Shown here in pieces: positions 21,455 through 58,855 of a DNA stretch of 64,000 bases (positions are counted from its first letter, which is position 1; each line of letters opens with the position of its first letter). Under the pieces are notes generated by a model, which saw only the letters and a program-made list of their open reading frames with translations, was not told the DNA's origin and searched no databases. The DNA comes from Salmo salar (lineage: Eukaryota): contig NC_059444.1 of the NCBI RefSeq assembly GCF_905237065.1, forward strand, positions 52,006,644 through 52,070,643, given 5' to 3'. The position numbers and the translations under genes are program-made.

Positions 21455-21900
21455 CTACATGATCAAAAGTATGTGGACACAATGCTGTAGCGTTAAGATT
21501 TTCCCTTCACTGGAACGAAGGGGCCTAGCCCAAACCATGAAAAACACCCCTAGACCATTATTCCTCCTCCACCAAACTTAACAGTTGGCACTATGCATTG
21601 GGGCAGGTAGCGTTCTCCTGGCATCCGCCAAACCTGGATTAGTCCGTCGGACTGCCAGATGGTGAAGCGTGATTCATCACTCCAGAGTAGGCATTTCCAC
21701 TGCTCCAGAGTCCAATGGCGGTAAGCTTTACAACACTCCAGCCGACGCTTGGCGTTGCGCATGGTGATCTTAGGCTTGTGTGCGGCTACTTGGCCGTGGA
21801 AACCCATTTCACGATGCTCCTGAAGAACAGTTATTGTGCTGACGTATATATATAAAAAAACATGTGGAATTACTTTTGATTTAGAATGGCCCACAAAAAA
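21455..21900 (-). mobile_element. Tc1-like transposase fragment (DDE region)
   Basis: Minus ORF 21550..21894 gives ...[71 protein letters not shown], a typical Tc1 transposase. Confidence 0.8.
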
Positions 21901-23297: not shown

Positions 23298-23399
23298 CGG
23301 TTTGTGAGGTCCTCTCAGGATGTGAGCTCTGGCCCCCTCACAGGCAGATGCCATGGCAGAGAGAGGAGGGGTACCCAGCAGGTCAGTGATCAGATCCAA
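23298..23399 (-). CDS. nlk: nlk exon 7
   Basis: Acceptor ccccgcAG|TTGGATC and donor CCG|GTACTA. Encodes LDLITDLLGTPPLSAMASACEGARAHILRGPHKP (34 codons, phase 0). Confidence 0.75.
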
Positions 23400-25184: not shown

Positions 25185-25440
25185 TACAGTACCCGTCAAA
25201 AGTTCGAACACCTACTCATTCAAGAGTTTATTTTTTGCCATTTTCTACATTGTAGAATAATAGTGAAGACATCAAAACTATTAAATAACACACATGGAAT
25301 CATGTAGGAACCAAAAAAAGTGATAGATTTCTTTAAATACATATTTTATATATGAGATACTTCAAAGTAGCCACCCTAGGCCTTGACAGGTTTGCACACT
25401 ACGTATTCTCTCAACCAGCTTCATGAGGTAGTCTTAGCTC
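25185..25440 (-). mobile_element. Tc1-like element, terminal fragment with inverted repeat
   Basis: Starts with the inverted repeat cagtacccgtcaaaagttcgaacacctactcattc, followed by the conserved Tc1 3'-end sequence in reverse complement (ttctacattgtagaataatagtgaagacatcaaaac). Confidence 0.75.
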
Positions 25441-26340
25441 CGGTTTGGAGCGAGCAGTCGCACTACTCTTCGCTCCACAGGTAATATTACACTTCACTAC
25501 ATTACAACAGCTTGATTTGTTTGATCTGAGCAATTCTTCTTAGCTAGCTACATAGCCGTCTTTGTATCAAAGATAATTGTGTAGTTTTAGAGTAATTGAG
25601 TAATTATCGAGGCTAGCTATCTTCGTCCTCCTAACGTAGCAACACTCCTAGCTGCTAGCTAGCTAGTCATCACTCCTAGCTAGCCAACTTCTACCGACTA
25701 GCAGCACTGTAGATACTATTACATTACAACGTAACGACTTGATTAGTGTGGTGTTAGTGTTAGTTAGCCAGCTACATAGTTGTCCTTGCTGTCTCTGTAT
25801 CTAAGATAGTTGTGTAGTTTGAGTAATTATCGAGGTGAGCTAGCCAGCCGCGACGCGGCGCCAGACTTAGTCAACACACCTAGTCATCATTAACCCACTG
25901 CTAGCTAGCCAACCGTTACCGACTAGCAGCGCTGTAGATACTAATACTTTACAACGGAACGATTTGACTAGTGCAGTGTTAGCTAGCTAGCTACTTAGTT
26001 GTCTTTGTCATAGCTTGATAATTGTGTAGTTTAGTAATTACCGAGGTCAGCTAGCCAGCTATTTCCGTCCCCCGCGACGCCATTTTTCCTAACCCAGCCA
26101 ACTATTACCGACGAGCAGCATTGTAGAAACTAAATACATACAAGGAACGTCTTGATTAGTGTTATGTTAGCTAGCTAGCTACAAAGTTGCTTTGTATCAT
26201 GACAAGGTGTAGTACTGAAACTATCGAGGTTACCTAGCCAGCTACACGTTCAAAGTCAACAACGCAGCCACTGCTAGCTAGCCTACTCCACCAGCCAGCA
26301 GTACTGTATCATTTTAGTCAATAAGATTTTTGCAACGTAA
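25440..26340. repeat. Tandem array of about 4 units of roughly 200-235 bp, rich in gctagctagc motifs
   Basis: The repeated unit contains ...gctagctagc...ccaac(t/c)tctaccgactagcagc(a/g)ctgtagatacta(t/a)tac(a/t)ttacaacg(t/g)aacga(c/t)ttga(t/c)tagtg...gttag...agctac(a/t)tagttgtc(c/t)ttg...agtaattatcgaggt(g/c)agctagccagc. Copies start near 25640, 25870, 26060 and 26250. Lies immediately 5' of LINE copy A. Confidence 0.7.
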
Positions 26341-29300
26341 GCTTAACTTTCTGAACATTCGAGACGTGTGGTCCACTTGTCAGTCCAATCTCCTTTGCAT
26401 TAGCGTAGCCTCTTCTGTAGCTTGTCTACTATGTGTCTGTCTATCCCTGTTCTCTCCCCTCTGCTCAGGCCATACAAACGCTCCACACCGCGTGGCCGCT
26501 GCCACTCTAACCTGGTGGTCCCAGCGCGCACGACCCACATGGAGTTCCAGGTCTCCGGCAGCCTCTGGAACTGCCGGTCTGCGGCCAACAAGGCTGAGTT
26601 CATCTCAGCCTATGCTACCCTCCAGTCCCTAGACTTCCTGGCGCTGACGGAAACATGGATTACCACAGATAACACTGCTACTCCTACTGCTCTCTCCTCG
26701 TCTGACTACGTGTTCTCACATACCCCTAGAGCATCGAGCCAGCGGGGTGGTGGCACTGGAATCCTCATCTCTCCCAAGTGGACATTCTCTCTTTCTCCCC
26801 TGACCCATCTGTCTATCTCCTCATTTGAATTCCATGCTGTCACAGTTACCAGCCCTTTCAAGCTTAACATCCTTATCATTTATCGCCCTCCAGGTTCCCT
26901 TGGAGAGTTCATCAATGAGCTTGACGCCTTGATAAGTTCCTTTCCTGAGGATGGCTCACCTCTCACAGTTCTGGGTGACTTTAACCTCCCCACGTCTACC
27001 TTCGACTCATTCCTCTCTGCCTCCTTCTTTCCACTCCTCTCCTCTTTTGACCTCACCCTCTCACCTTCCCCCCTACTCACAAGGCAGGCAATACGCTTGA
27101 CCTCATCTTTACTAGATGCTGTTCTTCCACTAATCTCATTGCAACTCCCCTCCAAGTCTCCGACCACTACCTTGTATCCTTTTCCCTCTCGCTCTCATCC
27201 AACACTTCTCACTCTGCCCCTACTCGGATGGTATTGCGCCGTCCCAACCTTCGCTCTCTCTCTCCCGCTACTCTCTCCTCTTCCATCCTATCATCTCTTC
27301 CCTCTGCTCAAACCTTCTCCAACCTATCTCCTGATTCTGCCTCCTCAACCCTCCTCTCCTCCCTCTCTGCATCCTTTGATTTCCTCTGTCCCCTATCCTC
27401 CAGGCCGGCTCGGTCCTCCCCTCCTGCTCCGTGGCTCGACGACTCACTGCGAGCTCACAGAACAGGGCTCCGGGCAGCCGAGCGGAAATGGAGGAAAACT
27501 CGCCTCCCTGCGGACCTGGCATCCTTTCACTCCCTCCCCTCTACATTTTCCTCTTCTGTCTCTGCTGCTAAAGCCACTTTCTACCACTCTAAACTCCAAG
27601 CATCTGCCTCTAACCCTAGGAAGCTCTTTGCTACCTTCTCCTCCCTCCTGAATCCTCCTCCCCCTCCCCCCTCCTCCCTCTCTGCGGATGACTTCGTCAA
27701 CCATTTTGAAAAGAAGGTTGACGACATCCGATCCTCGTTTGCTAAGTCAAACGACACCGCTGGTCCTGCTCACACTGCCCTACCCTGTGCTTTGACCTCT
27801 TTCTCCCCTCTCTCTCCAGATGAAATCTCGCGTCTTGTGACGGCCGGCCGCCCAACAACCTGCCCACTTGACCCTATCCCCTCCTCTCTTCTCCAGACCA
27901 TTTCCGGAGACCTTCTCCCCTACCTCACCTCGCTCATCAACTCATCCTTGACCGCTGGCTACGTCCCTTCCGTCTTCAAGAGAGCGAGAGTTGCACCCCT
28001 TCTGAAAAAACCTACACTCGATCCCTCCGATGTCAACAACTACAGACCAGTATCCCTTCTTTCCTTTCTCTCCAAAACTCTTGAACGTGCCGTCCTTGGC
28101 CAGCTCTCTTGCCATCTCTCAGAATGACCTTCTTGATCCTAATCAGTCAGGTTTCAAGACTGGGCATTCAACTGAGACTGCTCTTCTCTGTGTCACGGAG
28201 GCTCTCCGCACTGCTAAAGCTAACTCTCTCTCCTCTGCTCTCATCCTTCTAGACCTATCTGCTGCCTTTGATACCGTGAACCATCAGATCCTCCTCTCCA
28301 CCCTCTCCGAGCTGGGCATCTCCGGCGCGGCCCACGCTTGGATTGCGTCCTACCTGACAGGTCGCTCCTACCAGGTGGCGTGGCGAGAATCTGTCTCCGC
28401 ACCACGTGCTCTCACCACTGGTGTCCCCCAGGGCTCTGTTCTAGGCCCACTCCTATTCTCGCTATACACCAAGTCACTTGGCTCTGTCATATCCTCACAT
28501 GGTCTCTCATATCATTGCTATGCAGATGACACACAATTAATCTTCTCCTTTCCCCCTTCTGACAACCAGGTGGCGAATCGCATCTCTGCATGTCTGGCAG
28601 ACATATCAGTGTGGATGACGGATCACCACCTCAAGCTGAACCTCGGCAAGATGGAGCTGCTCTTCCTCCCGGGGAAGGACTGCCCGTTCCATGATCTCGC
28701 CATCACGGTTGACAACTCCCTTGTGTCCTCCTCCCAGAGTGCTAAGAGCCTTGGCGTGACCCTGGACAACACCCTGTCGTTCTCCACTAACATCAAGGCG
28801 GTGACCCGATCCTGTAGGTTCATGCTCTACAACATTCGCAGAGTACGACCCTGCCTCACACAGGAAGCGGCGCAGGTCCTAATCCAGGCACTTGTCATCT
28901 CCCGTCTGGATTACTGCAACTCGTTGTTGGCTGGGCTCCCTGCCTGTGCCATTAAACCCCTACAACTCATCCAGAACGCCGCAGCCCGTCTGGTGTTCAA
29001 CCTTCCCAAGTTCTCTCACGTCACCCCGCTCCTCCGCTCTCTCCACTGGCTTCCAGTCGAAGCTCGCATCCGCTACAAGACCATGGTGCTTGCCTACGGA
29101 GCTGTGAGGGGAACGGCACCTCCGTACCTTCAGGCTCTGATCAGGCCCTACACTCAAACAAGGGCACCGCGTTCATCCACCTCTGGCCTGCTCGCCTCCC
29201 TACCTCTGAGGAAGCACAGTTCCCGCTCAGCCCAGTCAAAACTGTTCGCTGCTCTGGCACCCCAATGGTGGAACAAGCTCCCTCACGACGCCAGGACAGC

Positions 29301-29520
29301 GGAGTCAATCACCACCTTCCGGAGACACCTTAAACCCCACCTCTTTAAGGAATACCTAGGATAGGATAAAGTAATCCTTCTAACCCCGCCCCCCCTTAAA
29401 AGATTTAGATGCACTATTGTAAAGTGGTTGTTCCACTGGATATTATAAGGTGAATGCACCAATTTGTAAGTCGCTCTGGATAAGAGCGTCTGCTAAATGA
29501 CTTAAATGTTAAATGTAAAT
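26340..29520 (+). mobile_element. L2/RSg-1-like LINE, copy A (endonuclease + RT, frameshifted), with 3' tail ...gtaagtcgctctggataagagcgtctgctaaatgac
   Basis: Plus-strand ORFs 26422..27651, 27228..28127 and 28030..29364 in three frames. Endonuclease motifs (SLWNCRSAANKAEFISAYA...ALTETW) and RT motifs (LLDPNQSGFKTGHSTETAL, LLDLSAAFDTVNH, YADDTQL). Roughly 97-98% identical to copy B. Confidence 0.85.
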
Positions 29521-30856: not shown

Positions 30857-32880
30857 TACAAAACATTAAGAACACCTGCTCTTTCCATGACAGACTGCCC
30901 AGGTGAAAACTACCTTTGATGTCACTTGTTAAATCCACTTCAAATCCGTGTAGATGAAGGAGAAGATTTTTAAGCCTTGAAACATGGATTGTGTATGTGA
31001 GAGACTAGTCAAGGACCATATCACCTCCACCCTACCTGACACCCTAGACCCACTCCAATTTGCTTACCACCACAATAGGTCCACAGACGACGCAATCGCC
31101 ATCACACTGCACACTGCCCTAACCCATCTGGACAAGAGGAATACCTATGTAAGAATGCTGTTCATCGATTACAGCTCAGCATTTAACACCATAGTACCCT
31201 CCAAACTCGTCATTAAGCTCGAGAACCTGGGTCTCGACCCCGCCCTTTGCAACTGGGTCCTGGACTTCCTGACAGGCCGCCCCCAGGTGGTGAGGGTAGG
31301 TAACAGCATCTCCACCCCGCTGATCCTCAACACTGGGTCCCCACAAGGGTGCGTTCTCAGCCCTCTCCTGTACTCCCTGTTCACTCATGACTGCGTGGCC
31401 ATGCACGCCTCCAACTCAATCATCAAGTTTGCAGATGACACTACAGTGCTAGGCTTGATTACCAACAACGACGAGATGGCCTACAGGGAGGAGGTGAGGG
31501 CCCTCGGAGTGTGGTGTCAGGAAAATAACCTCTCACTCAATGTCAACAAAACAAAGGAGATGATCGTGGACTTCAGGAAACAGCAGAGGGATCAGCCCCC
31601 TATCCAGATCGACGGGACAGTATTGGAGAAGGTGGAGAGTTTTAAGTTCCTCGGCGTACACATCACAGACAAACTGAAATGGTCCACCCACACAGACAGC
31701 GCGGTGAAGAAGGCGCAGCAGCGCCTCTTCAACCTCAGAAGGCTGAAGAAATTCGGCTTGTCACCAAAAACACTCAAACTTTTACAGATGCACAATCGAG
31801 AGCATCCTGTCGGGCTGTATCACCGCCTGGTACGGCAGCTGCTCCGCCCATAACCGGAAGACTCTCCAGAGGGTAGTGAGGTCTGCACAACACATCACCG
31901 GGTGCAAACTACCTGCCCTCCAGGACACCTACACCACCCGATGTCACAGGAAGGCCAAAAAGATCATCAAGGACAACAACCACCCGAGCCACGGCCTGTT
32001 CACCCCGCTACCATACAGAAGGCGAGGTCAGTACAAGTGCATCAAAGCGGGGACCGAGAGACTGAAAAACAGCTTCTATCTCAAGGCCATCAGACTGTTA
32101 AACAGCCATCACTAACATTGAGTGGCTGCTGCCAACATACTGACTCAACTCCACCCACTTTAATAATGGTAAAATTGATGTAATCAATTTATCACTAGTC
32201 ACTTTATATTATATAATGTTCTCATACCCTACATTGCTCATCTCATATGTATATACTGTACTCTATACCATCTACTGCATCTTGCCTATGCCGTTTGGCC
32301 ATCACTCATTTATATATTTTTATGTACATATTCATATTCATTCCTTTACACTTGTGTGTACAAGGTAGTTGTTGTGAAATTGTTAGGTTATATTACTTGT
32401 TAGATATTACTGCATGGTCGGAACTAGAAACACAAGCATTTCGCTACACTTGCATTAACACCTGCTAACCATGTGTATGTGACAAATAAATTTGATATTT
32501 TGATTTGTGCCATTCAGAGGCTGAATAAATGGGCAAGACAAACTATTTAAGTGCCTTTGAACAAGGTATGGTAGTAGGTGCCAGGTGCAACAGTTTCAGT
32601 GTGTCAAGAACTGCAAAGGTGCTGGGTTTTTCACACTCAACAGTTTCCCATGTGTGTCAAGAATGGTCGACCATCCTAAGGACATCCAGCCAACGAGACA
32701 ACTGTGGGAAGCATTGGAGTCAACAAGGGCCAGCATCGCTGTGGAATGCATTCAACACCTTGTAGAGTGCATGCCCTGATGAACTGAGGCTGTTTTGAGG
32801 GCAAAAGGTGTGGGGGGCAACTCAATATTAGGAAGGTGTTTGTAATGTTTGGTGTACCCAGTGTAGGTTGACCACTGTAA
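30857..32880 (+). mobile_element. Nested insertion: Tc1-derived repeat (30857-30983 and 32470-32880) split by a 5'-truncated LINE RT fragment (30984-32470)
   Basis: The two flanks are the left and right halves of the same repeat as 2130-2700. The insert encodes plus-strand RT ORF 30984..31853 ([13 protein letters not shown]...FADDTTV) and C-terminal ORF 31876..32115 (KLPALQDTYTTRCHRKAKKII), then a 3' UTR. Lies in nlk intron 5. Confidence 0.8.
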
Positions 32881-37572: not shown

Positions 37573-37904
37573 CTAGCTGAGAGGCTGGGGGGCGATGCTG
37601 GAGCAGTCAGTGACCAGCAGGCCCACGGTTGAGCTGCCTGACAGAGACACGGCCACAGCCATGGTACCGGTCCCCGCGGGGCTACTGCTGGGGCTGGGGG
37701 CGCCCTGGACCTGGGTGACGGCGTGGGTGCCCATGTGGCCCTGGAGCTGGGTGGGTGTCTTGCACTGCACCCCACACAGTTGGCACAGCAGCACCCCGCC
37801 AGCACCGGCCCCGCCGAACATGCCCCGCGTCCCGCCGCTCTCCTTCCACTCCTGGCCGTGATGTTTCTGAGCGTGGACACGCAGATAGGTGAGGGTGGTG
37901 AAGC
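37573..37904 (-). CDS. maz: MAZ-like last coding exon (stop TAG at 37573-37575)
   Basis: Acceptor ctccAG|GCTTCACC. Encodes (S)FTTLTYLRVHAQKHHG...LLCQLCGVQCKTPTQLQGHMGTHA...SIAPQPLS then stop. The last finger matches the MAZ C-terminus. Confidence 0.8.
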
Positions 37905-38114
37905 CTGGAGGGAGATGAGAGGGAGAGGGAGGAAGAGAGAGGGAGGGAGAGCATTGAGAAATAAGAAAAGGCGAGGAACAAAAGATGAGGAACAAAAGAG
38001 AAGGACATATGAGAGATGAGAAATGAGAGAGGGATAACTGTGTAACCACCTCCGTTACACAGGTATTCTCCTCTCCTTTCACAAATTTAAAAAAGAACAT
38101 GGAAGTCCACTCAC

Positions 38115-38286
38115 TGCGGTTGCACAGGTGGCAGGCGTGGTGCTGTGATTGGTTGTGGACCCTCATATGATCGGTGATGTAGGCGGCAGAGAGGAGCTTG
38201 CCACAGATGTGGCACGGCACCTTCTCCTCGTGGCGAATCAGGTGGGCACGGAGACGGTCCCGAGTGGCGAAGGCAGACGTGCAGGT
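38115..38286 (-). CDS. maz: MAZ-like exon with C2H2 fingers 5-6
   Basis: Acceptor tacacAG|ACC and donor A|GTGAGTGG. Encodes TCTSAFATRDRLRAHLIRHEEKVPCHICGKLLSAAYITDHMRVHNQSQHHACHLCNR. Anchored to minus ORF 37573..38325. Confidence 0.85.
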
Positions 38287-38889
38287 CTGTGTAGCACACA
38301 CGCCCGCACACACACACAAAACCATTGTTCAATCTTGGACATTTTGACAATTTTCTTCGCCATTATATTTTAGAAGCTAGGCAGGTCAATGTCATTAAAT
38401 TGCCTATAAAAAAATTCATACAGTGTACACAGAGAAGCAAGGAACATATGACAGGAAACAAGTTTGAAAATAGGGAGAAAGAACAAGGCAAGAGTTAAAA
38501 TGTTGTCCCCCACGAATGATGCAGTTTCGTGCAGATCGGTTATTCAGTGCCAGAGGAGTAGCAGCAGCAGCAGCTGAAAAATGAGCTCCTACAAATATTG
38601 AAATTTACATGGTTTTTAGAGTGAAGTACATCGGAAAAAAGCAAAAGAAAACTGCAAGACTGAATAGGAGAAAAAACAAGCAACAAACAAAGACGATAGG
38701 CTTTTGAAAAATAACTATTTTTCATAAAATTGTAGTTATCTTAGCAAGCTGAATTGTTTACCAGTTGCTAAGCAGTTGCTAGGGACTCTTTTGGAAGAAG
38801 CTAGCTAGCTAACGAAGAACAACAAAGAATATCTAGTTAACAGAAGAAAAGAAAGAGAAAATCAGGACAGAAGAAAAAGGATATCAAAG

Positions 38890-41830
38890 TGAAACAGTTC
38901 TCTAAAGACACAGGAGACAATAATACAAGAAACAACACTTCTGTAGCTTGTCAACTATGTGTCTGTCTATCCCTGTTCTCTCCTCTCTGCACAGGCCATA
39001 CAAACGCTTCACACCGCGTGGCCGCTGCCACTCTAACCTGGTGGTCCCAGCGCACACGACCCACGTGGAGTTCCAGGTCTCCGGCAGCCTCTGAAACTGC
39101 CGGTCTGCAGCCAACAAGGCTGAGTTCATCTCAGCCTATGCTACCCTCCAGTCCCTAGACTTCCTGGCGCTGACGGAAACATGGATTACCACAGATAACA
39201 CTGCTACTCCTACTGCTCTCTCTTCGTCTGCCCACGTGTTCTCGCATACCCCTAGAGCATCGAGCCAGCGGGGTGGTGGCACTGGAATCCTCATCTCTCC
39301 CAAGTGGACATTCTCTCTTTCTCCCCTGACCCATCTGTCTATCTCCTCATTTGAATTCCATGCTGTCACAGTTACCAGCCCTTTCAAGCTTAACATCCTT
39401 ATCATTTATCGCCCTCCAGGTTCCCTTGGAGAGTTCATCAATGAGCTTGACGCCTTGATAAGTTCCTTTCCTGAGGATGGCTCACCTCTCACAGTTCTGG
39501 GTGACTTTAACCTCCCCACGTCTACCTTTGACTCATTCCTCTCTGCCTCCTTCTTTCCACTCCTCTCCTCTTTTGACCTCACCCTCTCACCTTCCCCCCC
39601 TACTCACAAGGCAGGCAATACGCTTGACCTCATCTTTACTAGATGCTGTTCTTCCACTTATCTCATTGCAACTCCCCTCCAAATCTCCGACCACTACCTT
39701 GTATCCTTTTCCCTCTTGCTCTCATCCAACACTTCTCACTCTGCCCCTACTCGGATGGTATTGCGCCGTCCCAACCTTCGCTCTCTCTCTCCCGCTACTC
39801 TCTCCTCTTCCATCCTATCATCTCTTCCCTCTGCTCAAACCTTCTCCAACCTATCTCCTGATTCTGCCTCCTGAACCCTCCTCTCCTCCCTTTCTCCTCC
39901 AAGCATCTGCCTCTAACCCTAGGAAGCTCTTTGCTACCTTCTCCTCCCTCCTGAATCCTCCTCCCCCTCCCCCCCCCTCCTCCCTCTCTGCGGATGACTT
40001 CGTCAACCATTTTGAAAAGAAGGTTGACGATATCCGATCCTCGTTTGCTAAGTCAAACGACACCGCTGGTCCTGCTCACACTGCCCTACCCTGTGCTTTG
40101 ACCTCTTTCTCCCCTCTCTCTCCAGATGAAATCTCGCGTCTTGTGACGGCCGGCCGCCCAACAACCTGCCCACTTGACCCTATCCCCTCCTCTCTTCTCC
40201 AGACCATTTCCGGAGACCTTCTCCCCTTCCTCACCTCGCTCATCAACTCATCCTTGACCGCTGGCTATGTCCCTTCCGTCTTCAAGAGAGCGAGAGTTGC
40301 ACCCCTTCTGAAAAAACCTACACTCGATCCCTCCGATGTCAACAACTACAGACCAGTATCCCTTCTTTCTTTTCTCTCCAAAACTCTTGAACGTGCCGTC
40401 CTTGGCCAGCTCTCCTGCTATCTCTCTCAGAATTACCTTCTTGATCCTAATCAGTCAGGTTTCAAGACTGGGCATTCAACTGAGACTGCTCTTCTCTGTG
40501 TCACGGAGGCTCTCTGCACTGCTAAAGCTAACTCTCTCTCCTCTGCTCTCATCCTTCTAGACCTATCTGCTGCCTTTGATACTGTGAACCATCAGATCCT
40601 CCTCTCCACCCTCTCCGAGTTGGGCATCTCCGGCGTGGCCCACGCTTGGATTGCGTCCTACCTGACAGGTCGCTCCTACCAGGTGGCGTGGCGAGAATCT
40701 GTCTCCGCACCATGCGCTCTCACCACTGGTGTCCCCCAGGGCTCTGTTCTAGGCCCTCTCCTATTCTCGCTATACACCAAGTCACTTGGCTCTGTCATAT
40801 CCTCACATGGGCTCTCCTATCATTGCTATGCAGACGACACACAATTAATCTTCTCCTTTCCCCCTTCTGATAACCAGGCGGCGAATCACATCTCTGCATG
40901 TCTGTCAGACATATCAGTGAGGATGACGGATCACCAGCTCAAGCTGAACCTCGGCAAGACGGAGCTGCTCTTCCTCCCGGGGAAGGACTGCCCGTTCCAT
41001 GATCTCGCCATCACGGTTGACAACTCCCTTGTGTCCTCCTCCCAGAGTGCTAAGAACCTTGGCGTGATCCTGGACAACACCCTGTCGTTCTCCACTAACA
41101 TCAAGGCGGTGACCCGATCCTGTAGGTTCATGCTCTACAACATTCGCAGAGTACGACCCTGCCTCACACAGGAAGCGGCGCAGGTCCTAATCCAGGCACT
41201 TGTCATCTCCCGTCTGGATTACTCCAACTCGCTGTTGGCTGGGCTCCCTGCCTGTGCCATTAAACCCCTACAACTCATCCAGAACGCCGCAGCCCGTCTG
41301 GTGTTCAACCTTCCCAAGTTCTCTCACGTCACCCCGCTCCTCCGCTCTCTCCACTGGCTTCCAGTTGAAACTCGCATCCGCTACAAGACCATGGTGATTG
41401 CCTACGGAGCTGTGAAGGGAACGGCACCTCCATACCTTCAGGCTCTGATCAGGCCCTACACCCAAACAAGGGCACTGCGTTCATCCACCACTGGCCTGCT
41501 GGCCCCCCTACCTCTGAGGAAGCACAGTTCCCGCTCAGCCCAGTCAAAACTGTTCGCTGCTCTGGCACCCCAATGGTGGAACAAGCTCCCTCACGACGCC
41601 AGGACAGCGGAGTCAATCACCACCTTCCGGAGACACCTGAAACCCCACCTCTTTAAGGAATACCTAGGATAGGATAAAGTAATCCTTCTAACCCCCCCCT
41701 TAAAAGATTTAGATGCACTATTGTAAAGTGGTTGTTCCACTGGATATCATAAGGTGAATGCACCATTTTGTAAGTCGCTCTGGATAAGAGCGTCTGCTAA
41801 ATGACTTAAATGTAATGTAATGTAATGAGT
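38890..41830 (+). mobile_element. L2/RSg-1-like LINE, copy B (5'-truncated; 731-aa RT ORF intact; about 220 bp shorter than copy A)
   Basis: Plus-strand ORFs 39236..39874 (endonuclease part) and 39477..41672 (RT through to the C-terminus ...HLFKEYLG), with the same 3' tail as copy A. Antisense within a maz intron. Confidence 0.85.
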
Positions 41831-50809: not shown

Positions 50810-52110
50810 TACAAAACATTATGAACAATGTTCTTTCCATGACATAGACTGACCAGGTGAATCTAGGTGAAAGCTATGATCCCTTATTGATGTCACTTGT
50901 TAAATCCAGTTCAATCAGTGTAGAGGAAGGGGAGGAGACAGGTTATAGAAGGATTTTTAAGCCTTGAGACAATTGAGACATGGATTGTGTATGTGTGCCA
51001 TTTAGATGGTGAATAATGGGCAAGACAAAATATTTAAGTTCCTATGAACGGGGTATGGTAGTAGGTGCCAGGTGCACCGATTTGTGTCAAAACCTGCAAC
51101 ACTTCTAGGTTTTTCCACACTCAACAGTTTCCAGTGTGCATCAAGAATGCAAGAATGGTCCACAATCCAAGGGACATCCAGCCAACTTGACACAACTGTG
51201 GGAAACATTGGAGTCAACATGGACCAGCATCCCTGTGGAATGCTTTCGTCACTTGGGGGTTGCTGTGCGAAGTTGCTGGAATTAGAACACGCTGTCATAC
51301 ACGTCGACTCAGAGCATCCCAAACATGCTCAATTGATAACATGTCTGGTGAGTATGCAGGCCATGAAAGTACTGTGACGATTTCAGATTCCAGGAATTGT
51401 GTACAGATCCTTGAAACATGGAGCCGTGCATTATCATACTGAAACATGAGGTGATGGCGGTGAATGAATGGCACGACAATGTGTCTCATGATCGCGTCAC
51501 GGTATCTCTGTGCAGTCAAATTGCAATTGCGTTATTTTTCCATAGTTTATACCTGTCCATACCATAACCCCACCACCACCATCTGTTCACAACGATGACG
51601 TCAGCAAACCGCTTGCCCACACAACGCCATACATGTGTTCTGCGGTTGTGAGGCCGGTTGGACGTACTGCCAAATTCTCTAAAACAACGTTGGAGGCGGC
51701 TTATCGTAGAGAAATTAACATGACATTTCTCTGGCAACAGCTCTGGTGTACATTCCTGCAGTCGGCATGCCAATTGCACACTCCCTCAAAATTTGAGACA
51801 TCTGTGGTATTATGTGTGACAAAACTGCACATTTTAGAGCCTTTTACTGTACCCAGCACAAGGTGCACCTGTGTAATGATCATGCTGTTTAACCAGATTC
51901 TTGATATGCCACACCTGTCAGGTGGATGGATTATCTTGGCAAAAGGGAAAACACGCACAAACAGGGATGTAAAAAAATGTGCACACAAAATTCGAGAGAA
52001 ATAAGCCTTTTGTGCATATGGAACATTTCTGGGATATTTTATTTCAGCTCATGAAACATGGGACCAATACTTTACATGTTGTGATTATATTTTTGTTCAG
52101 TGTACATCTT
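50810..52110. mobile_element. Composite: Tc1-derived repeat (50810-51220, plus strand) fused to a Tc1-like family-B element (51220-52110, minus strand)
   Basis: The first part matches the 2130-2700 repeat. Minus ORFs 51295..51519 and 51516..51779 are Tc1 transposase. It ends with the terminal sequence ...cacaacatgtaaagtattggtcccatgtttcatgagctgaaataaaat. Confidence 0.7.
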
Positions 52111-52389
52111 TTCCAGGACGCTGAAAAGGTATCTTTCCGGACGTTAAAAAAATAAGTATTTTCCGGACGTTGAAACCGTGTTCATTTTCAGTTCTAAATG
52201 AAAGTTGAAAATACTTATTTTTCCAGAATAGCCTACGAATAGGAGTTTTACCTGACCAGGACATCAGATCAGGAGAAAACTCCAGGCCCCAGAAAATACA
52301 TACTTTTGAACCTGTGGTGCCACCTCTGGATCATATTGTAGTTCATAAGGTAAAGTTTTATTTGTTGTGAATTAATCTTTCACTTGTTT

Positions 52390-53533
52390 TGCCGTCCTCA
52401 GAGAGGATGAATCTGGGATTTGCTGTATCAGGGTCCAGAGTCACATCCACTGCATCTTCTTCAGCATCAAATCAGGAAACTTCCCCATTCGGTTAAGACA
52501 TTTCTCCTCAAGCTCAGAAAAAGCCCCCCTCACTTTTTCCTCCAGCTGAGACAAAGAGCTCCTCACTCCTCTGTTCACACCCCTTCCACACAGAGCACTG
52601 TGAAAACTGATCTCAGACAAGTCCTGGACCTGGGTGAGTGGGGGGGGGCACAGGGATGACATGTTCGGTAGGTCCTCAGTGTGAGAGCTGCTCCAGCTCA
52701 GTGCGTCTCCTCTGTAGCTCAGTGATTTCCTGCTCCAGCTCTTCGATACACACTCCACACTGCACTTTTCTTCTTCTCGTTAACATTCTAAATGTAGTTA
52801 GCCTGGCTTCTCTCAACGGAGCACACGAGAGCAGTGAGCACCTGTACGCCGTCTGCTATGTCAAGTTCTGTGTTTCTGTTGCTGAGCTCTACGGAGTGTT
52901 TGAACTCCTCAACCTTCAGCTATCGCTCCTGAATCATCTTCTGCACCTGTGCTTCCAGCTGAGCCCTCCTTTCTCCATACTCTTCCTAGAGGGACGGTGT
53001 GGTGAGCCTTGTAGTGTGTCTCAGTGCAGAACGGATACACATACGCCTGGGCAGTCCTACAGAACATCTCCAGGAGTCTGTCATGCTTCTTACACATCCT
53101 GTCGTCCAGGCTCTCCACGGGGCCGATCAGCTTGTGTCTCTTCAGGGCTAGGGCTGAGGCTGCAGGTGAGTCTCACAGAAAGACACCAGGAAAGAAAGTA
53201 GTGCCTTGCGCTTCGTCCCAGTGCAGACGTCACAGGCCACTTCTCCAGACTTAGTAGGGTGCTGGTCTGGGCTGCTGATAGCTTTCCATTGAACTGATTT
53301 CCTGAACTGAGCGGCCATCTCAGAAATAAAAGGTATCGACACAGATCTGGTCTCCTATCAAAAGTATTTTTACACAGTGGACACTGGCACACGTAATTGC
53401 TATTCAAGTACTTTCTGATGCAGGTCTTGCAGAAGTTGTGTCCACATGAAGTGGTGACTGGCTCAGTGAACACGTCCAGATAGATAGAGCACTGGAACTG
53501 CTCTTCAGACAGCAGACTGCTGCAGGTAGCCAT
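52390..53533 (-). pseudogene. TRIM/finTRIM-like gene (RING, B-box, coiled-coil, start of PRY), intronless and frameshifted; probably a processed pseudogene
   Basis: Minus ORFs 53090..53533 (MATCSSLLSEEQFQCSIYLDVFTEPVTTSCGHNFCKTCIRKYL...CPLCK, a RING), 53148..53342 and 52909..53118 (B-box Cys/His), and 52441..52758 (coiled-coil), followed by VTLDPDTANPRFILSEDGKQVK (PRY start). They lie contiguously but in three different frames. No introns separate the domains, and the SPRY part is missing or degenerate. Confidence 0.6.
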
Positions 53534-53649
53534 GTCTAGACAGAGACCAAAGATGAAATGATAAAACTATATTATACAATTATAATGCATTTACTGGAAT
53601 TATTGGTATAACTTGTGATAATACTTTATGAATAGACACATCCAGCCTA

Positions 53650-53850
53650 GTTGAAGTGATCAATACATTAAACTGGATACCAGTGGAGGCTGCTGAGGGG
53701 AGGACGGCTCATAATAATGGCTGAAATGAAATGGAGTGAATGGAATGATACCAAACACATGAACCCCCCCCCCCCCAAAAAGATGTGTTTGATACCATTC
53801 CATTCCGGCCATTATTATGAGCCGTTCTCCCCTCAGCAGCCTCCACTACT
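53650..53850. mobile_element. MITE-like hairpin element with about 85-bp near-perfect inverted arms
   Basis: The arm ccagtggaggctgctgaggggaggacggctcataataatggctg...aatggaatg is mirrored by cattccattccggccattattatgagccgttctcccctcagcagcctccactact. Confidence 0.75.
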
Positions 53851-53996
53851 GGTTACCAACATTTCGGTGAAGCTCGTTTAGTTTAGTAAAACTTCTTTGA
53901 AACATTTTGCCTGCTTGACATTTCAAACTGAATAGTGACCAAACTTGAAATTTTATTTTATATTCAACACTCTTTGGCTATGATAAAGTTTCCGAT

Positions 53997-55450
53997 GTTA
54001 GATCTACTGAACAAAAATTTAAACGCAACATGCAATAATTTCAAAGATTTTACTGAGTTACAGTTCATATAAGGTCAATTTAAATAAATCAAATTGTATT
54101 AGTCACATGCATCGAATACAACAGGTGTAGACCTTACAGTGAAATGCCTACTTACGAGCCCCTAACCAACAATGCAGTTAAAAAAAGAAAGAAAAACAAA
54201 TAAAAGTAACAAGTCATTAAAGAGCAGCAGTAAAATAACAATAGCGAGACTATATACAGGGGGGTACCGGTACAGAGTCAATGTGCGAGGGCACCGGTTA
54301 GTCGAGGTAATTCAGGTAATATCTACATGTAGGTAGAGTTATTAAAGTGACTATGCATAGATGATAACAACAGGGAATAGCAGTGGTGTAAAAGGGGGGG
54401 GGGGGGTTGCAAATAGTCAGGTTAGCCATTTGATTAGATGCTAAAAGAGTCTTATGGCTTGGGGGTAGAAGCTATTTAGAAGCCTCTTGGACCTAGACTT
54501 GGCGCTCCGGTACCGCTTGCTGTGCAGTAGCAGAGAGAACAGTCTATGACTAGGGTGGCTGGAGTCTTTGACAATTTTTAGGGCCTTCCTCTGACACCCC
54601 CTGGTATAGAGGTCCTGGCTGGCAGGAAGCTTGGCCCCAGTGATGTACTGGGCGGTACGCACTACTTTCTGTAGTGCCTTGTGGTCGGAGGCCGAGCAGT
54701 TGCCATACCAGGCAGTGATGCAACCAGTCAGGATGCTCTCGATGGTGCAGCTGTAGAAACTTTTGAGGATCTGAGGACCCATGCCAAATTTTTTCAGTCT
54801 CCTGAATAGGCGTTGTCGTGCCCTCTTCGCGACTGTCTTGGTGTGCTTGGACCATGTGAGTTTGTTGATGATGTGGACACCAAGGATCTTGAAGCTCTCA
54901 ACCTGCTCCACTACAGCCCCGTCAATGAGAATGGGGGCGTGCTTGGTCCTCTTTTTCCTGTAGGCCACAATCATCTCCTTTGTCTTGATCACGTTGAGGG
55001 AGAGGTTGTTGTCCTGGCACCACACGGCCAGGTCTCTGACCTCCTCCCCATAGGCTGTCTCGTCATTGTCGGTGATCATGCCTACCACTGCTGTGTCATC
55101 TGCAAACTTAATGATGGTGTTGCAATAAATGCATTAGGCTCTAATGTATGGATTTCACATGACTGGGCAGGGGTGCAGCCGTGGGATGGCCTTGGAGGGC
55201 ATAGGCCCACCCACTTGGCAGCCAGGCCTACCCACTGGGGAGCCAGACCCAGCCAATCAGAATGAGTTTTTCCCCACAAAAGTGCTTTATTAAACACAGA
55301 AATACTCCTCAGCCCCCCCCCACCCATCCCCCATCAGACGATCCCACAGGTGAAGAAGCCCGATGTGGAGGTCCTGCGCTGGTGTGGTTCCACGTGGTCT
55401 GCTGTTGTGAGGCCGGTTGGATGTACTGCCAAATTCTCTAAAATGACGTT
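53997..55450 (-). mobile_element. Nested insertion: Tc1-like family-B element interrupted by a 5'-truncated LINE (54090-55100, minus strand)
   Basis: Tc1 ends at 53997-54090 and 55100-55450 (...gtgaggccggttggatgtactgccaaattctctaaaatgacgttggaggc...). The insert encodes minus RT ORF 54441..55088 (...[62 protein letters not shown]...), plus a 3' UTR matching 2770-3170. Confidence 0.8.
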
Positions 55451-55454
55451 GGAG

Positions 55455-58060
55455 GCAGCTTACAGTGCATTCGGGAAGTTTTCAGACCCCTTGACTTGTT
55501 CCACATTTTGTTTCGTTACAGCTTAATTTTTCCCTCATTAATCTACACACAATGACAAAGCAAAAATTGGTTTTTAGAAACGTTTGCAAATGTATTAAAA
55601 ATTAAAAACTGAAATATCACATTTACGTAAGTATTCAGACCCTTTAATCAGTACTTTGTTCAAGCACAATTGGCAGCAATTACAGCCTCGAGTCTTCTTG
55701 GGTATGACGCTACAAGCTTGGCACACCTGTATTTGGGGAGTTTCTACCATTCTTCTTTGCAGATTCTCTCAAACTCTGTCAGGTTGAATGGGGAGCGTCG
55801 CTGCAAAGCTATTTTCAGGTCTCTGCAAAGATGTCCGATCGGGTTGAAGTCATGGCTCTGGCTGGGCCACTCAAGGACATTCAGAGACTTGTCCTGAAGC
55901 TACTCCTGCATTGTCTTGGCTGTGTGCTTAGGGTCGTTGTCCTGTTGGAAGGTGAACCTTCGGCCCAGTCTGAGGTCCTGAGTGCTCTGGAGCAGGTTTT
56001 CATCAAGGATCTCTCTGTACTTTGCTCCGTTCATCTTTCTCTCGATCCTGACTAGTCTCCCAGTCCCTGTCGCTGAAAACCATCCCCACTGTCACTGAGC
56101 CTGCCTGCTGTCCTGTGACTTTGCCCCTACACTGAATTACCGACCTCTGCCTGACCTGACCCTGGACCTACCTGCCTGTCGTCCTGTACCTTGGCACCAC
56201 TATTATGGATTATCGACCACTGCCTGCCTTGACCTGTTGTCTGCCTGCCCCTGTTATTGCAATAAACATTGTTACTACAACACAGTCTGCACTTGGGTCT
56301 TACCTGAAACCTGATACCCACAGCATGATGCTGCCACCACGCTTCACCGTAGGGATGGTGCCAGGTTTCCTCCAGACGTGACGCTTGCATTCAGGCCAAA
56401 GAGTTCAATCTTGGTTTCATCAGACCAGAGAATCTTGTTTCTCATGGTCTGAGAGTTCTTTAGGTGCCTTTTGTCAAACTCCAAGCAGGCTGTCATGTGC
56501 CTTTTACGGAGTGGCTTCCGTCTGGCCACTCTACCATAAAGGCCTGATTGGTGGATTGTTGCAGAGATGGTTGTCCTTCTGGAAGGTTCTCCCATTTCCA
56601 CAGAGGAACTCCGGAGCTCTGTAAAAGTCACCATCAGATTCTTGGTCACCTCCCTAACCAAGGAATTCCCCAGGCTAGTTGTTTTGGACCCTTGCTTTTT
56701 TTTACTGACGACATGTCACTGACTTTGAGTAAAGCCAGAGTTTCTATGTATGCGGTTGACTCAACACTATACACGTCAGATACTACAGCGACTGAAATGA
56801 CTGCAACACTCAACAAAGAGCTGCAGTTAGTTTCAAAGTGGGTGGCAAGGAATACTTTAGCCTTAAATATTACTAAAACTAAAAGCATTGTATTTGGAAC
56901 AAAACACTCACCAAACCCTAAACCTCAACTAAATCTTGTAATAAATAATGTGGAAATTGAGCAAGTTGAGATGACTAAACTGCTTGGAGTGACACTAGAT
57001 TGTAAACTGTCATGGTCAAAACATATTGATGCAGCAGTAGCTAAGATGGGGAGAAGTCTGTCTATAATAAAGCGATGCTTTGCCTTAACAACACTATCAA
57101 CAAGGCAGGTCCTACAGGCCATAGTTTTGTCGCACCTTGACTACTGTTCAGTCGTGTGGTCAAGTGCCACAGAAAAGGACTTTGCAGTTGGAAAATTGCA
57201 GTTGGTTCAGAACAGGGCAGCACGGCTGGCCCTTGGATGTACACAGAGAGGTAATATTAATAATTTGCATGTCAATCTCTCCTGGCTGAAAGTGGAGGAG
57301 AGATTGACTTCATCACTACTTTGATTTATGAGAGGTATTGACATGTTGAATGCACCGAGCTGTCTGTCTAAACTACTGGCACACAGCTCGGACACCCATG
57401 CATACCCCACAAGAGGTCTCTTTACAGTCCCCAAGTCCAGAACAGACTATGGGAGGCACACAGTACTACATAGAGTCATGACTACATGGAACTCTATTCC
57501 ACATCAAGTAACTGACGTAAGCAGTAAAATTAGATTTAAAAACAGATAAACATTGAACCAGACACATGCATACACACACAATAACATATGCACTATACAG
57601 ACACATGGATTTAGTAATGTAGATATGTGGTAGTGGTAGAGTAGGGGCCTGAGGGCATACAGTGTGTTGTGAAATCTGTGAATATATTTTAAAATTGTAT
57701 AAACTGCCTTAAACTTTGCTGGACCCCAGGAAGAGTGGGGATCCATAATAAATACAAATGCTGAAGAACTTCTTTGGTACCCTTCCCAAGAGGTTTGCCT
57801 TGACACAATCCTGTCTCGGAGCTCTACGGACAATTCCTTCAACCACATGGCTTGGTTTTTGCTCTGACATGCACTTTCAACTGTGGGACCTTATATAGAC
57901 AGGTATGTGCCTTTTCAAATCATGTCCAATCAATTGAATTTACCACAGGTGGACTTCAATCAAGTTGTAGAAACAAGGATGGTCAATGGAAACAGGATGC
58001 ACCTGAGTTCAATTTCGGATCTCGTAGTAAAGGGTCTGAATAGTTATGTAAATTAGGCAT

Positions 58061-58115
<55 letters not shown>

Positions 58116-58245
58116 GGGCTTTTATGTGTAGATTGAGGAGGATGTTTATTTTTTTTTATCCATTGTAGAATAAGGCTGTAATTTAACAAAATGTGGAAAA
58201 AGTCAAGGGGTCTGAATACTTTTCGAATGCACTGTATGATAGAGA
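55455..58245 (-). mobile_element. Nested insertion: Tc1-like element with a LINE RT fragment (56640-57770, plus strand) inserted
   Basis: Inverted repeats cagtgcattcgggaagttttcagaccccttgac (55455-) and gggtctgaatacttttcgaatgcactg (-58245). Minus ORF 56344..56661 is Tc1 transposase. Plus ORF 56548..57324 is an RT C-terminal domain (...MYAVDSTLYTS...LGVTLDCKLSWSKHID...). Confidence 0.8.
58063..58105. repeat. (AT)n microsatellite
   Basis: atatatatat... run, located inside the Tc1 terminal region. Confidence 0.9.
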
Positions 58246-58855
58246 AATTAACATTGAATTATCTGGCAACAGCTCTGGTGGACATTCCTGCAGTCAGCAT
58301 GCCAATTGCATGCTCCCTCAAAACTTGAGACATCTGTGGCATTGTGTTTTGTGAAAAACTGCACATTTTAAAGTGGCCTTTTATTGTCCCCAGCACAAGG
58401 TGCACCTGTGTAATGATCATGCTGTTTAACCAGCTTTTTTTTTCTTTTTTTTTTTAACAGGGCAAGTCAGTTAAGAACAAATTCTTATTTACAATGACGG
58501 CCTACCGGGGAACAGTGGGTTAACTGCCTTGTTCAGGGACAGAATGACAGATTTTTACCTTGTCAACTCGGGAATTCGATCCAGCAAGCTCTTTCGGTTA
58601 CTGGCCCAATGCTCTAACCAGTAGGCTACCTGCCACCCCCAAGCTTCTTGATATGCCACACCTGTCAGGTGGATGGATTATCTTGGCAAAGAAGAAATGC
58701 TCACTAACAGGGATGTAAACAAATTTGTGCACAAAATTTGAGAGAAATAAGCTTTTTGTACATTTGGAAAATGTCTTGATATTTTTTACTTCAGCTCATG
58801 AGACATGGAACCAACACTTTACATGTTGCATTTGTATTTTTGTTCAGTGTAGTTA
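58245..58855. mobile_element. Tc1-like family-B 3' half (same family as 51620-52110); contains nested SINE
   Basis: ...ctggcaacagctctggtggacattcctgcagtcagcatgccaattgca...cttgatatgccacacctgtcaggtggatggattatcttggcaaag...tgttcagtgta. A SINE lies at 58445-58640. Confidence 0.7.
58445..58640 (-). mobile_element. tRNA-derived SINE of a second salmonid family
   Basis: The reverse complement shows a tRNA-like head (ggggtggcaggtagcctactggttagagcattgggccagtaaccgaaag...gatcgaattcccgag) and the tail ...gtaggccgtcattgtaaataagaatttgttcttaactgacttgccc. Confidence 0.7.

What the first reader, a model, noticed from the sequence alone, without database searches (positions are those of the whole stretch)
52390..53533. 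Intronless TRIM/finTRIM-like gene with multiple frameshifts: likely retro-pseudogene
RING (C3HC4, ...CPLCK), B-box, coiled-coil and the first residues of a PRY/SPRY domain are colinear on the minus strand with no introns. Fish TRIM genes of the ftr/btr type are normally multi-exonic. Three frame changes and a truncated SPRY argue against a functional gene. A spliced mRNA reverse-transcribed by the abundant local LINE machinery would explain the structure.
Basis: partly seen in the sequence, partly recalled or inferred. Interest (0 to 1): 0.5.

Follow-up and report, generated by a model that had tools for sequence, protein, structure and literature searches.

The report
Decayed single-exon-family TRIM pseudogene fragment
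This is an ordinary dead, truncated copy of a fish immune-type TRIM gene. Its lack of introns is normal for its gene family in salmon-like fishes and is not evidence that it was copied back from an mRNA.

Summary
Window 52380-53533 (minus strand) does encode RING, B-box1, B-box2, coiled-coil and the first ~22 residues of PRY of a class-IV TRIM. It is clearly dead:
- 2 in-phase TAG stops
- lost zinc ligands
- no remainder of the B30.2 domain anywhere in the 64 kb

All 15 intact relatives I checked, from 7 euteleost sources, carry the whole CDS in one uninterrupted exon, and several sit in tandem arrays. By their B30.2 domains these relatives are bloodthirsty-related (btr/TRIM39-like), not finTRIM.

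All 15 also show a pyrimidine tract plus AG ending exactly 2 nt before the ATG. Twelve of them have consensus-like splice donors 160-304 nt upstream. I infer a conserved 5'UTR intron from this. The window copy keeps that acceptor block, so it was not made from a spliced mRNA. There is no poly-A tail and no target-site duplication. The copy is truncated at its 3' end, the opposite of what LINE-mediated copying usually leaves.

Its private substitutions show no third-codon-position excess, which fits neutral decay.

Verdict: an unprocessed or duplicated pseudogene fragment lying between two Tc1-like transposons. Low interest.

The parts
53534..53581 (-). Retained block just upstream of the ATG: pyrimidine tract plus CTAG ending 2 nt before the ATG. 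I infer this to be the 3' splice-acceptor end of the family's 5'UTR intron.
   Evidence: BLASTN homology to intact relatives extends to 53558-53581. The block ...TTTCAYCTYTGGTCTCTGTCTAGAY-ATG is nearly invariant in 6 salmonid genes and in the window. 16 of the 20 nt before the AG are pyrimidines, and the AG ends 2 nt before the ATG, as in all 15 intact relatives.
53372..53491 (-). RING finger remnant, with zinc ligand 2 mutated (Cys to Tyr, CSIYLD). The ATG is at 53531-53533.
   Evidence: Pfam zf-C3HC4 and related models, res. 14-54. Relative-guided translation. Coordinates.
53131..53234 (-). B-box1 remnant. A 9-nt in-frame deletion (at 53184) and a 7-nt frameshifting deletion (at 53156) remove Cys/His ligands.
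   Evidence: In the intact relative P0002 this stretch hits ANCHR-like_BBOX at res. 101-140.
52988..53103 (-). B-box2 remnant. Two Cys have become Tyr (TCVCQFC to AYVYPFC). A 2-nt deletion lies at its end (52988).
   Evidence: Pfam zf-B_box E=7.7e-4..
52507..52919 (-). Coiled-coil region remnant. Contains two in-phase TAG stops (52920-52922 at its edge, and 52788-52790), an 8-nt deletion (52758), a 2-nt deletion (52684) and several in-frame indels.
   Evidence: Pfam TRIM_CC E=7.6e-19..
52378..52444 (-). First ~22 residues of the PRY/B30.2 domain (AVDVTLDPDTANPRFILSEDGK), with a +1 insertion at 52391. Homology to all relatives stops at about 52375-52388.
   Evidence: Pfam PRY profile positions 1-20 of 49. 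Alignment A2. BLASTN end points. 82% identity over 22 aa to zebrafish BTY/BTR20.
52104..52377 (.). Unassigned AT-rich spacer between the truncation point and the Tc1-like element. It has small internal inverted and direct repeats. It has no homology to TRIM genes or to anything else in the window, and no poly-A run.
   Evidence: Self-BLAST finds it unique in the window. Repeats I4, I5 and D7. Sequence read directly.
51295..52103 (-). Context only: Tc1/mariner-type transposon remnant. Its terminal inverted repeat ends at about 52101-52103, facing the pseudogene.
   Evidence: DDE_3 hit for ORF 51295-51519. TIR match at 52075-52101.
54004..54085 (+). Context only: left end of a second Tc1-like element. 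Its partner TIR is at 58822-58848, and a LINE fragment interrupts the element.
   Evidence: TIR matches at 54006-54032 (+) and 58822-58848 (-), with none expected by chance. A LINE-tail repeat at 54099-54436 resembles 2836-3157. The LINE ORF at 54441-55088 is shown.

Best explanation
The feature is a non-functional, 3'-truncated, unprocessed pseudogene fragment of the euteleost bloodthirsty-related (btr / TRIM39-like) class-IV TRIM family.

In salmonids, Umbra, smelts and Polymixia, intact members of this family consist of an inferred short non-coding exon 1, an inferred 5'UTR intron of about 160-300 nt whose acceptor ends 2 nt before the ATG, and one exon holding the whole ~545-codon CDS. Members are commonly arranged in tandem arrays.

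The window copy inherited its colinear, intron-free coding region from that family architecture. It most likely arose by DNA-level duplication, or is the relic of a former array member. It keeps the intron-acceptor block but no recognisable exon 1 or promoter. It has lost everything downstream of PRY residue ~22. It has since drifted neutrally while Tc1-like and LINE elements accumulated around it. It makes no functional TRIM protein.

Shown: homology and extent, the disabling lesions, the single-exon CDS of relatives, btr affinity, and the absence of poly-A, TSD and remaining B30.2.

Inferred: the 5'UTR intron (comparative evidence only), the DNA-level origin, and neutral decay over most of its private history.
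For: - **Identity.** E=3e-125 to salmonid TRIM39-like proteins. 74-75% nucleotide identity by BLASTN, and 77-80% over ungapped aligned columns, to six salmonid genes.
- **Family structure.** 15 of 15 intact relatives have gene range = CDS = one ORF (ORFs re-translated). Tandem arrays occur in L002, L003, L005 and L008.
- **Acceptor signature.** In all 15, an AG ends exactly 2 nt before the ATG, preceded by 12-18 of 20 pyrimidines against a background of 0.44-0.52. The primary sequence diverges between orders but the pattern persists. Consensus-like donors such as CAG|GTGAGT lie 160-304 nt upstream in 12 of 15.
- **Window copy.** It keeps this block: 16 of 20 pyrimidines, AG at -2, and near-identity to the salmonid genes.
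- **Disablements.** 8 frameshifts, 2 in-phase stops and zinc-ligand losses.
- **Neutral pattern.** The copy has 106 private substitutions at 785 sites that are invariant in 8 functional genes. They split 45/34/27 over codon positions 1/2/3 (p=0.3). The smelt genes split 21/23/38 and 22/19/39 (p=0.006 and 0.001).
- **btr affinity.** B30.2 of relatives is 66-70% identical to zebrafish BTY/BTR20 and 29-31% to FTR. Some hits are named 'Bloodthirsty' by UniRef.
- **No retrocopy marks.** No poly-A run after the end of homology, no flanking direct repeats that qualify as TSDs, and no remaining B30.2 in the window.
Against: - The 5'UTR intron rests on comparative sequence patterns only. No transcript evidence could be obtained.
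- Homology upstream of the ATG extends only 25-48 nt. That coincides with the limit of conservation among the functional paralogs themselves, so the true 5' boundary of the copied segment is unknown.
- No exon-1 or promoter homology was detected.
- No other TRIM gene lies in the 64-kb window, so a local tandem origin is not visible.
- The NJ position of the copy is unresolved because of its long branch of 0.15. The actual donor paralog was not identified.
- The cause of the 3' truncation is not explained.
Confidence: 0.75

Rival explanations
1. One reading: a processed retro-pseudogene. A spliced mRNA of a multi-exon ftr/btr parent was reverse-transcribed and inserted by LINE machinery.
For: The RBCC and the start of PRY are colinear with no introns. 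Zebrafish ftr genes have 6 exons, and the zebrafish btr supplement mentions exons 4 and 6 and intron 5 (PMC2657112; PMC3137616 supplement). LINE EN/RT ORFs are abundant in the window.
Against: Every intact close relative tested (15 of 15, 7 sources) already has an uninterrupted CDS, so intron absence carries no information. The copy retains the acceptor-like intron end. There is no poly-A and no TSD. The copy is complete at the 5' end and truncated at the 3' end, whereas target-primed reverse transcription starts at the 3' end (established LINE biology, from my own knowledge).
Confidence: 0.03
2. A retrocopy of the family's own transcript, either unspliced or intron-retaining, or starting from an alternative TSS about 50 nt upstream of the ATG. 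Its 3' part and poly-A tail were later deleted.
For: Homology begins only 25-48 nt upstream of the ATG, which could mark a transcript start. No exon 1 or promoter is detectable upstream. The copy is isolated from any TRIM array, as dispersed retrocopies often are.
Against: It needs two extra assumptions: a non-canonical transcript and a secondary 3' deletion. The 5' limit of homology equals the limit of conservation among the functional paralogs, so it need not be a real boundary. There is no poly-A or TSD.
Confidence: 0.12
3. A gene fragment moved by a transposon (Tc1-like capture or LINE 3' transduction) rather than by ordinary segmental duplication.
For: The fragment sits in a 1.9-kb interval bounded by Tc1-like termini at 52101 and 54006. 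A same-strand LINE tail ends about 550 nt upstream. A 24-nt stretch at the truncation point (52357-52380) is 75% identical to the Tc1 TIR (D3).
Against: Both Tc1 termini face the fragment from outside. Their interiors point away from it, so it is inter-element DNA and not cargo. The 24-nt, 75% match is within chance for short two-copy repeats, per the tool's own caveat. No TSD brackets a composite unit.
Confidence: 0.08
4. An intact gene whose apparent lesions are sequencing or assembly errors.
For: None beyond the 147-codon ORF at the 5' end.
Against: 8 frameshifts, 2 in-phase stops, 6 in-frame indels, loss of at least 6 zinc ligands, 13.5% private substitutions spread evenly over codon positions, and a missing B30.2.
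Confidence: 0.01

Closest known systems
Bloodthirsty-related TRIMs (btr; teleost expansion related to TRIM39; Boudinot et al. 2011, PMC3137616)
   Same: RBCC-B30.2 architecture. B30.2 of the closest intact relatives is 66-70% identical to zebrafish BTY/BTR20, and the window's 22-aa PRY stub is 82% identical. It is a multigene family in tandem clusters with frequent pseudogenes and truncated members. Some hits are named 'Bloodthirsty' by their source.
   Different: Zebrafish btr genes span 4.7-12 kb and have several exons (supplement). The euteleost relatives here have the whole CDS in one exon. The window copy is dead and lacks almost all of B30.2.
finTRIM (ftr; van der Aa et al. 2009, PMC2657112)
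   Same: A teleost-specific, virus-inducible class-IV TRIM expansion. The RING/B-box1/B-box2 region of relative P0002 aligns colinearly with zebrafish ftr02 (39% identity, E=7e-39). That paper already reported that most medaka ftr-like genes (47 of 55) have the whole ORF in one exon and called them probable retrotransposed genes.
   Different: B30.2 of the relatives is only 29-31% identical to zebrafish FTR B30.2. The RING motifs differ: CGHNFC/CPxCK here against CGHSYC/CPQCR in zebrafish ftr. I therefore do not file it as ftr.
Processed (retro)pseudogenes made by LINE reverse transcriptase
   Same: The coding region is colinear and free of introns, it carries disabling mutations, and it lies in a LINE-rich neighbourhood.
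   Different: The parent family has no coding introns to lose. The one inferred intron (5'UTR) is retained at its 3' end. There is no poly-A and no TSD, and the truncation is at the 3' end rather than the 5' end.
Unprocessed (duplicated) pseudogenes and gene relics in birth-and-death immune gene families
   Same: A partial copy with non-mRNA flanking sequence retained, many frameshifts and stops, a neutral substitution pattern, and TE insertions around it.
   Different: No neighbouring paralog is visible within the 64 kb. The donor and the duplication boundaries could not be defined.

Membership tests
Processed retro-pseudogene | Lacks introns that the parent gene has | tested here: not met
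   15 of 15 intact relatives have an uninterrupted CDS, so there were no coding introns to lose. The family's inferred 5'UTR intron is partly retained in the copy.
Processed retro-pseudogene | Poly-A tract at the 3' end of the copy | tested here: not met
   Homology ends inside PRY at about 52380. The next 280 nt on the minus strand have no A-run longer than about 5. There is no 3'UTR or remaining B30.2 in the window.
Processed retro-pseudogene | Flanking target-site duplications | tested here: not met
   A repeat search over 51900-54200 found no direct repeat pair bracketing 52375-53581. It found only short, scattered, chance-level matches.
Processed retro-pseudogene | Homology confined to mature mRNA sequence | tested here: inconclusive
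   The copy includes the pyrimidine-tract plus AG block that I infer to be intronic. No transcript data were available to prove that the block is spliced out.
Class IV TRIM (RBCC-PRY/SPRY) | RING, B-box(es), coiled-coil, then PRY/SPRY in that order | tested here: met
   Pfam on the frame-corrected translation gives RING at 14-54, B-box at 145-183 (sub-threshold), TRIM_CC at 206-334, and PRY profile positions 1-20 of 49. SPRY is absent.
btr (bloodthirsty-related TRIM) | B30.2 and overall sequence group with zebrafish BTY/BTR rather than FTR or TRIM35-like | tested here: met
   Closest intact relatives are 66-70% identical to BTY/BTR20, 49-51% to BTR01, 29-31% to FTR12/22, and 45-48% to a TRIM35 stub. 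For the window itself only a 22-aa stub exists (82% to BTY). No full phylogeny was made.
btr (bloodthirsty-related TRIM) | Multi-exon gene structure as described for zebrafish btr | tested here: not met
   Zebrafish btr genes span 4.7-12 kb, and the supplement mentions exon 4, exon 6 and intron 5. Euteleost relatives have a single coding exon. This is a structural variant of the family, not an exclusion by sequence.
finTRIM (ftr) | B30.2 of the ftr / fish-NLR type, and the ftr RBB signature | tested here: not met
   Relatives are 29-31% identical to zebrafish FTR B30.2 but 66-70% to BTR. The RBB is only 39% identical to ftr02.
Unprocessed/duplicated pseudogene | Disabling mutations with relaxed constraint | tested here: met
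   8 frameshifts and 2 in-phase stops. Private substitutions split 45/34/27 over codon positions (p=0.3), while functional smelt genes show a third-position excess.
Unprocessed/duplicated pseudogene | Homology to the parent extends into non-transcribed or intronic DNA, or the parent lies in tandem | tested here: inconclusive
   The acceptor block is retained. Nothing further upstream aligns (z<=1.5). No second TRIM lies in the window.

The most novel reading that the evidence does not exclude
The whole euteleost btr-like subfamily (salmonids, Umbra, smelts, Polymixia; dozens of copies per genome) descends from one ancient retrogene of a multi-exon btr/TRIM39-type gene. That retrogene then recruited a non-coding exon 1 and a 5'UTR intron and expanded by tandem DNA duplication. 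On this reading, retroposition did happen, but once and deep in the family's history, not at this locus. The window copy is simply one dead descendant.
Probability: 0.5. Interest if true: 0.3.

Novelty: new member of a known kind. Interest (0 to 1): 0.08.

Why it matters
The value is mainly as a caution. Absence of introns is evidence for retroposition only when judged against the closest paralogs in the same lineage, not against the zebrafish gene model. For annotation, the locus should be labelled a btr-type TRIM pseudogene fragment, not a retrocopy. It adds one more example of birth-and-death turnover in a fish antiviral-type TRIM expansion. The side observation that this family has one coding exon plus a conserved 5'UTR intron across Euteleostei could help gene-model curation. 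One Polymixia model spanning 38.9 kb across several single-exon genes looks chimeric.

Tried and rejected
- **Rest of B30.2 or other TRIM pieces in the window.** tblastn to E=10 found none.
- **Exon 1 or promoter upstream of the copy.** A 21-nt exon-1 motif allowing up to 3 mismatches gave 0 hits. Local alignments of 53574-54100 against 9 relatives' upstream regions gave z<=1.5.
- **Transcript evidence for the 5'UTR intron.** A metagenome-collection scan with the conserved CDS start gave 0 hits. The only short contig, L004, is genomic and carries the acceptor.
- **Source genome or annotation.** The 147-aa ORF is not on record, and P0005 is not on record.
- **A closer parent.** I looked among the 120 hits by blastx and fetched L006 and L007. 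None is closer than about 79% nucleotide identity. NJ trees leave the copy on a long, unresolved branch.
- **Tc1 insertion as the cause of truncation.** The 24-nt, 75% match to the Tc1 TIR at the truncation point (D3) is too weak, so I rejected it.
- **Prokaryote-type promoter/terminator scan**. Irrelevant to a vertebrate locus, and it found nothing.
- **My own initial guess.** From memory I first took the motif to be finTRIM. Comparison with published zebrafish FTR and BTR sequences overturned this.

Full report
**What is there.** On the minus strand an ATG at 53533 opens a sequence that, read across several frames, gives RING, B-box1, B-box2, coiled-coil and the start of PRY. A frame-corrected translation matches 7,151 proteins. 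The best are salmonid 'TRIM39-like / TRIM21-like / RFP-like / Bloodthirsty' proteins of about 545 aa, at E=3e-125 and about 60% identity. Pfam finds RING (14-54), a weak B-box, TRIM_CC (E=7.6e-19) and only profile positions 1-20 of 49 of PRY. tblastn with intact relatives finds TRIM sequence only at 52388-53533. The remaining ~160 residues of B30.2 are nowhere in the 64 kb, even at E=10.

**How broken it is.** I aligned the locus to eight intact coding sequences.
- It carries 8 frameshifting indels: -2 at 53343, +1 at 53333, -7 at 53156, -2 at 52988, -8 at 52758, -2 at 52684, one in the variable linker at about 52455-52475, and +1 at 52391.
- It also has 6 in-frame indels and two in-phase TAG codons, at 52920-52922 and 52788-52790.
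- The second RING cysteine is now Tyr. B-box1 has lost its central Cys-x2-Cys and a His. B-box2 has two Cys-to-Tyr changes.
Sequencing error is not a credible explanation.
- At 785 sites invariant in all eight functional genes, the copy has 106 private substitutions. They fall 45/34/27 on codon positions 1/2/3 (no bias, p=0.3). The two smelt genes show the expected third-position excess (p=0.006 and 0.001). The copy has drifted without coding constraint for most of its private history.

I fetched the genomic loci of intact relatives. In every case the recorded gene range equals one uninterrupted ORF:
- Salvelinus namaycush: 1653 nt
- O. mykiss: 1638 and 1674 nt
- Coregonus clupeaformis: 1641, 1638 and 1641 nt, and 1650 nt at a second locus
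- Osmerus eperlanus: 1521 and 1632 nt
- O. nerka: 1233 nt
- Umbra pygmaea: 1644 nt
- Polymixia lowei: three genes of 1641, 1641 and 1638 nt
- One JGI contig

I re-translated all of them, and each has a single terminal stop. Several lie in tandem arrays 2-4 kb apart. Colinearity of RBCC and PRY is thus the native state of this family in Euteleostei. It says nothing about the origin of this particular copy.

**Which family.** Zebrafish FTR and BTR sequences are published in the supplements of PMC2657112 and PMC3137616. Against these, the B30.2 domains of the closest intact relatives are 66-70% identical to BTY/BTR20 and 29-31% identical to FTR12/22. The window's 22-residue PRY stub is 82% identical to BTY. 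The RBB region is 39% identical to ftr02. The family is therefore bloodthirsty-related (btr/TRIM39-like), not finTRIM. Zebrafish btr genes are multi-exon, spanning 4.7-12 kb, with supplement notes on exon 4, exon 6 and intron 5. Zebrafish ftr genes have six exons. The same 2009 paper, however, already noted that 47 of 55 medaka ftr-like genes have the whole ORF in one exon.

**Evidence against a processed origin for this copy.**
- In all 15 intact genes an AG ends exactly 2 nt before the ATG. It is preceded by 12-18 pyrimidines in 20 nt, against a background of 0.44-0.52.
- The primary sequence differs between orders but the pattern and position persist.
- Consensus-like donors (CAG|GTGAGT, CAG|GTGAAT, GAG|GTGAGT, TAG|GTGAGT, CGG|GTGAGA) lie 160-304 nt upstream in 12 of the 15.
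- I infer a conserved short 5'UTR intron from this comparative evidence, without transcripts.
- The window copy keeps the acceptor block almost unchanged...TTTCATCTTTGGTCTCTGTCTAG-AC-ATG. A copy of a spliced mRNA would have exon-1 sequence there instead.
- Homology to all relatives ends at about 52375-52388, inside PRY. Next comes 277 nt of unassigned AT-rich sequence without an A-run, and then a Tc1-like terminus at 52101.
- No direct repeats bracket the fragment.
- A copy that is complete at the 5' end and truncated at the 3' end is the reverse of what target-primed reverse transcription normally leaves (my own knowledge of LINE biology).

**Limits.**
- Upstream homology reaches only 25-48 nt. 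That is also where the functional paralogs stop being alignable with one another. The true 5' edge of the copied segment is therefore unknown, and no exon 1 or promoter could be found.
- A retrocopy of an unspliced or internally initiated transcript, later truncated at its 3' end, cannot be excluded. I give it about 0.12.
- The donor paralog is unidentified. The copy is 77-80% identical to the salmonid genes and 75-76% to the smelt genes. It sits on a long, unresolved NJ branch.
- I could not search salmonid genomes by DNA, so synteny, copy number and expression remain untested.

**Context.** The fragment occupies a 1.9-kb interval between two Tc1-like elements. One ends at 52101. The other spans 54006-58848 and is itself interrupted by a LINE fragment. 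A 166-nt palindromic element sits at 53682-53847. LINE EN/RT ORFs occur at 26.4-29.4, 31, 39.2-41.7 and 54.4-55.3 kb. The neighbourhood is a TE-rich, gene-poor stretch where a gene relic is unsurprising.

**Verdict.** This is an ordinary unprocessed pseudogene fragment of the single-coding-exon btr-type TRIM family. Calling it a pseudogene is right, but the retro-pseudogene mechanism is not supported. Interest is low. The only mildly interesting by-product is at family level: the euteleost btr-like genes look like descendants of one ancient intron-loss event, probably a retrogene, that later gained a 5'UTR intron and amplified by DNA duplication.

Noticed in passing
window 53682-53847: A palindromic element of about 166 nt, roughly 150 nt upstream of the pseudogene's ATG. 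It has 53-nt arms that are 92% complementary, a nested 31-nt arm pair, and a central G/C homopolymer run. It looks like a MITE or hairpin repeat.
   Followed up: partly
window 51295-52103; 54006-58848: Two Tc1/mariner-type elements flank the pseudogene interval. The first has a DDE_3 ORF remnant. The second is delimited by TIR matches at 54006-54032 (+) and 58822-58848 (-) and is interrupted by a LINE fragment. The tail of that LINE fragment (54099-54436) is 75% identical to 2836-3157.
   Followed up: partly
window 26422-29364, 30984-31853, 39236-41672, 54441-55088: Several LINE-type ORFs (endonuclease plus reverse transcriptase). One is a 731-aa ORF at 39477-41672 that may be nearly intact.
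   Followed up: no
window 37573-38325 (-): A 250-aa ORF with weak C2H2 zinc-finger hits. It is unclear whether it belongs to a gene or to a repeat.
   Followed up: no
L001 ~5600-5720; L002 ~5600-5700; L005 ~870-900 and ~3580-3600: Upstream of the inferred non-coding exon 1, intact relatives carry tandem GAAAC-type motifs that resemble ISRE/IRF sites (e.g. GCGAAACTGAAGT, TGAAACGAAACTAAAG). This hints at interferon-inducible promoters.
   Followed up: no
L002 and L003 (whole loci); L007: The intact TRIM arrays lie inside the recorded range of larger host genes. In O. mykiss and Coregonus the host is a Sulfotransfer_2 gene. At a second Coregonus locus it is an Eph-receptor gene. The arrays are therefore nested in host-gene introns.
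   Followed up: no
L008 3001-41858: The Polymixia gene model for P0060 spans 38.9 kb across at least three complete single-exon TRIM genes. A 1091-aa model at 20809-28799 carries two full TRIM domain sets. Both look like chimeric annotations of a tandem array.
   Followed up: no
P0102 (L006 5001-6233), P0109, P0042: Annotated intact-ORF relatives of 408-453 aa lack most or all of SPRY. Naturally short RBCC-only members therefore recur in this family. Their end points differ from the window copy's truncation point.
   Followed up: partly
window 52638-53201 (+): A 187-aa ORF antisense to the pseudogene. It is probably a by-product of the codon composition of the former coding strand. I did not search it against any database.
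   Followed up: no
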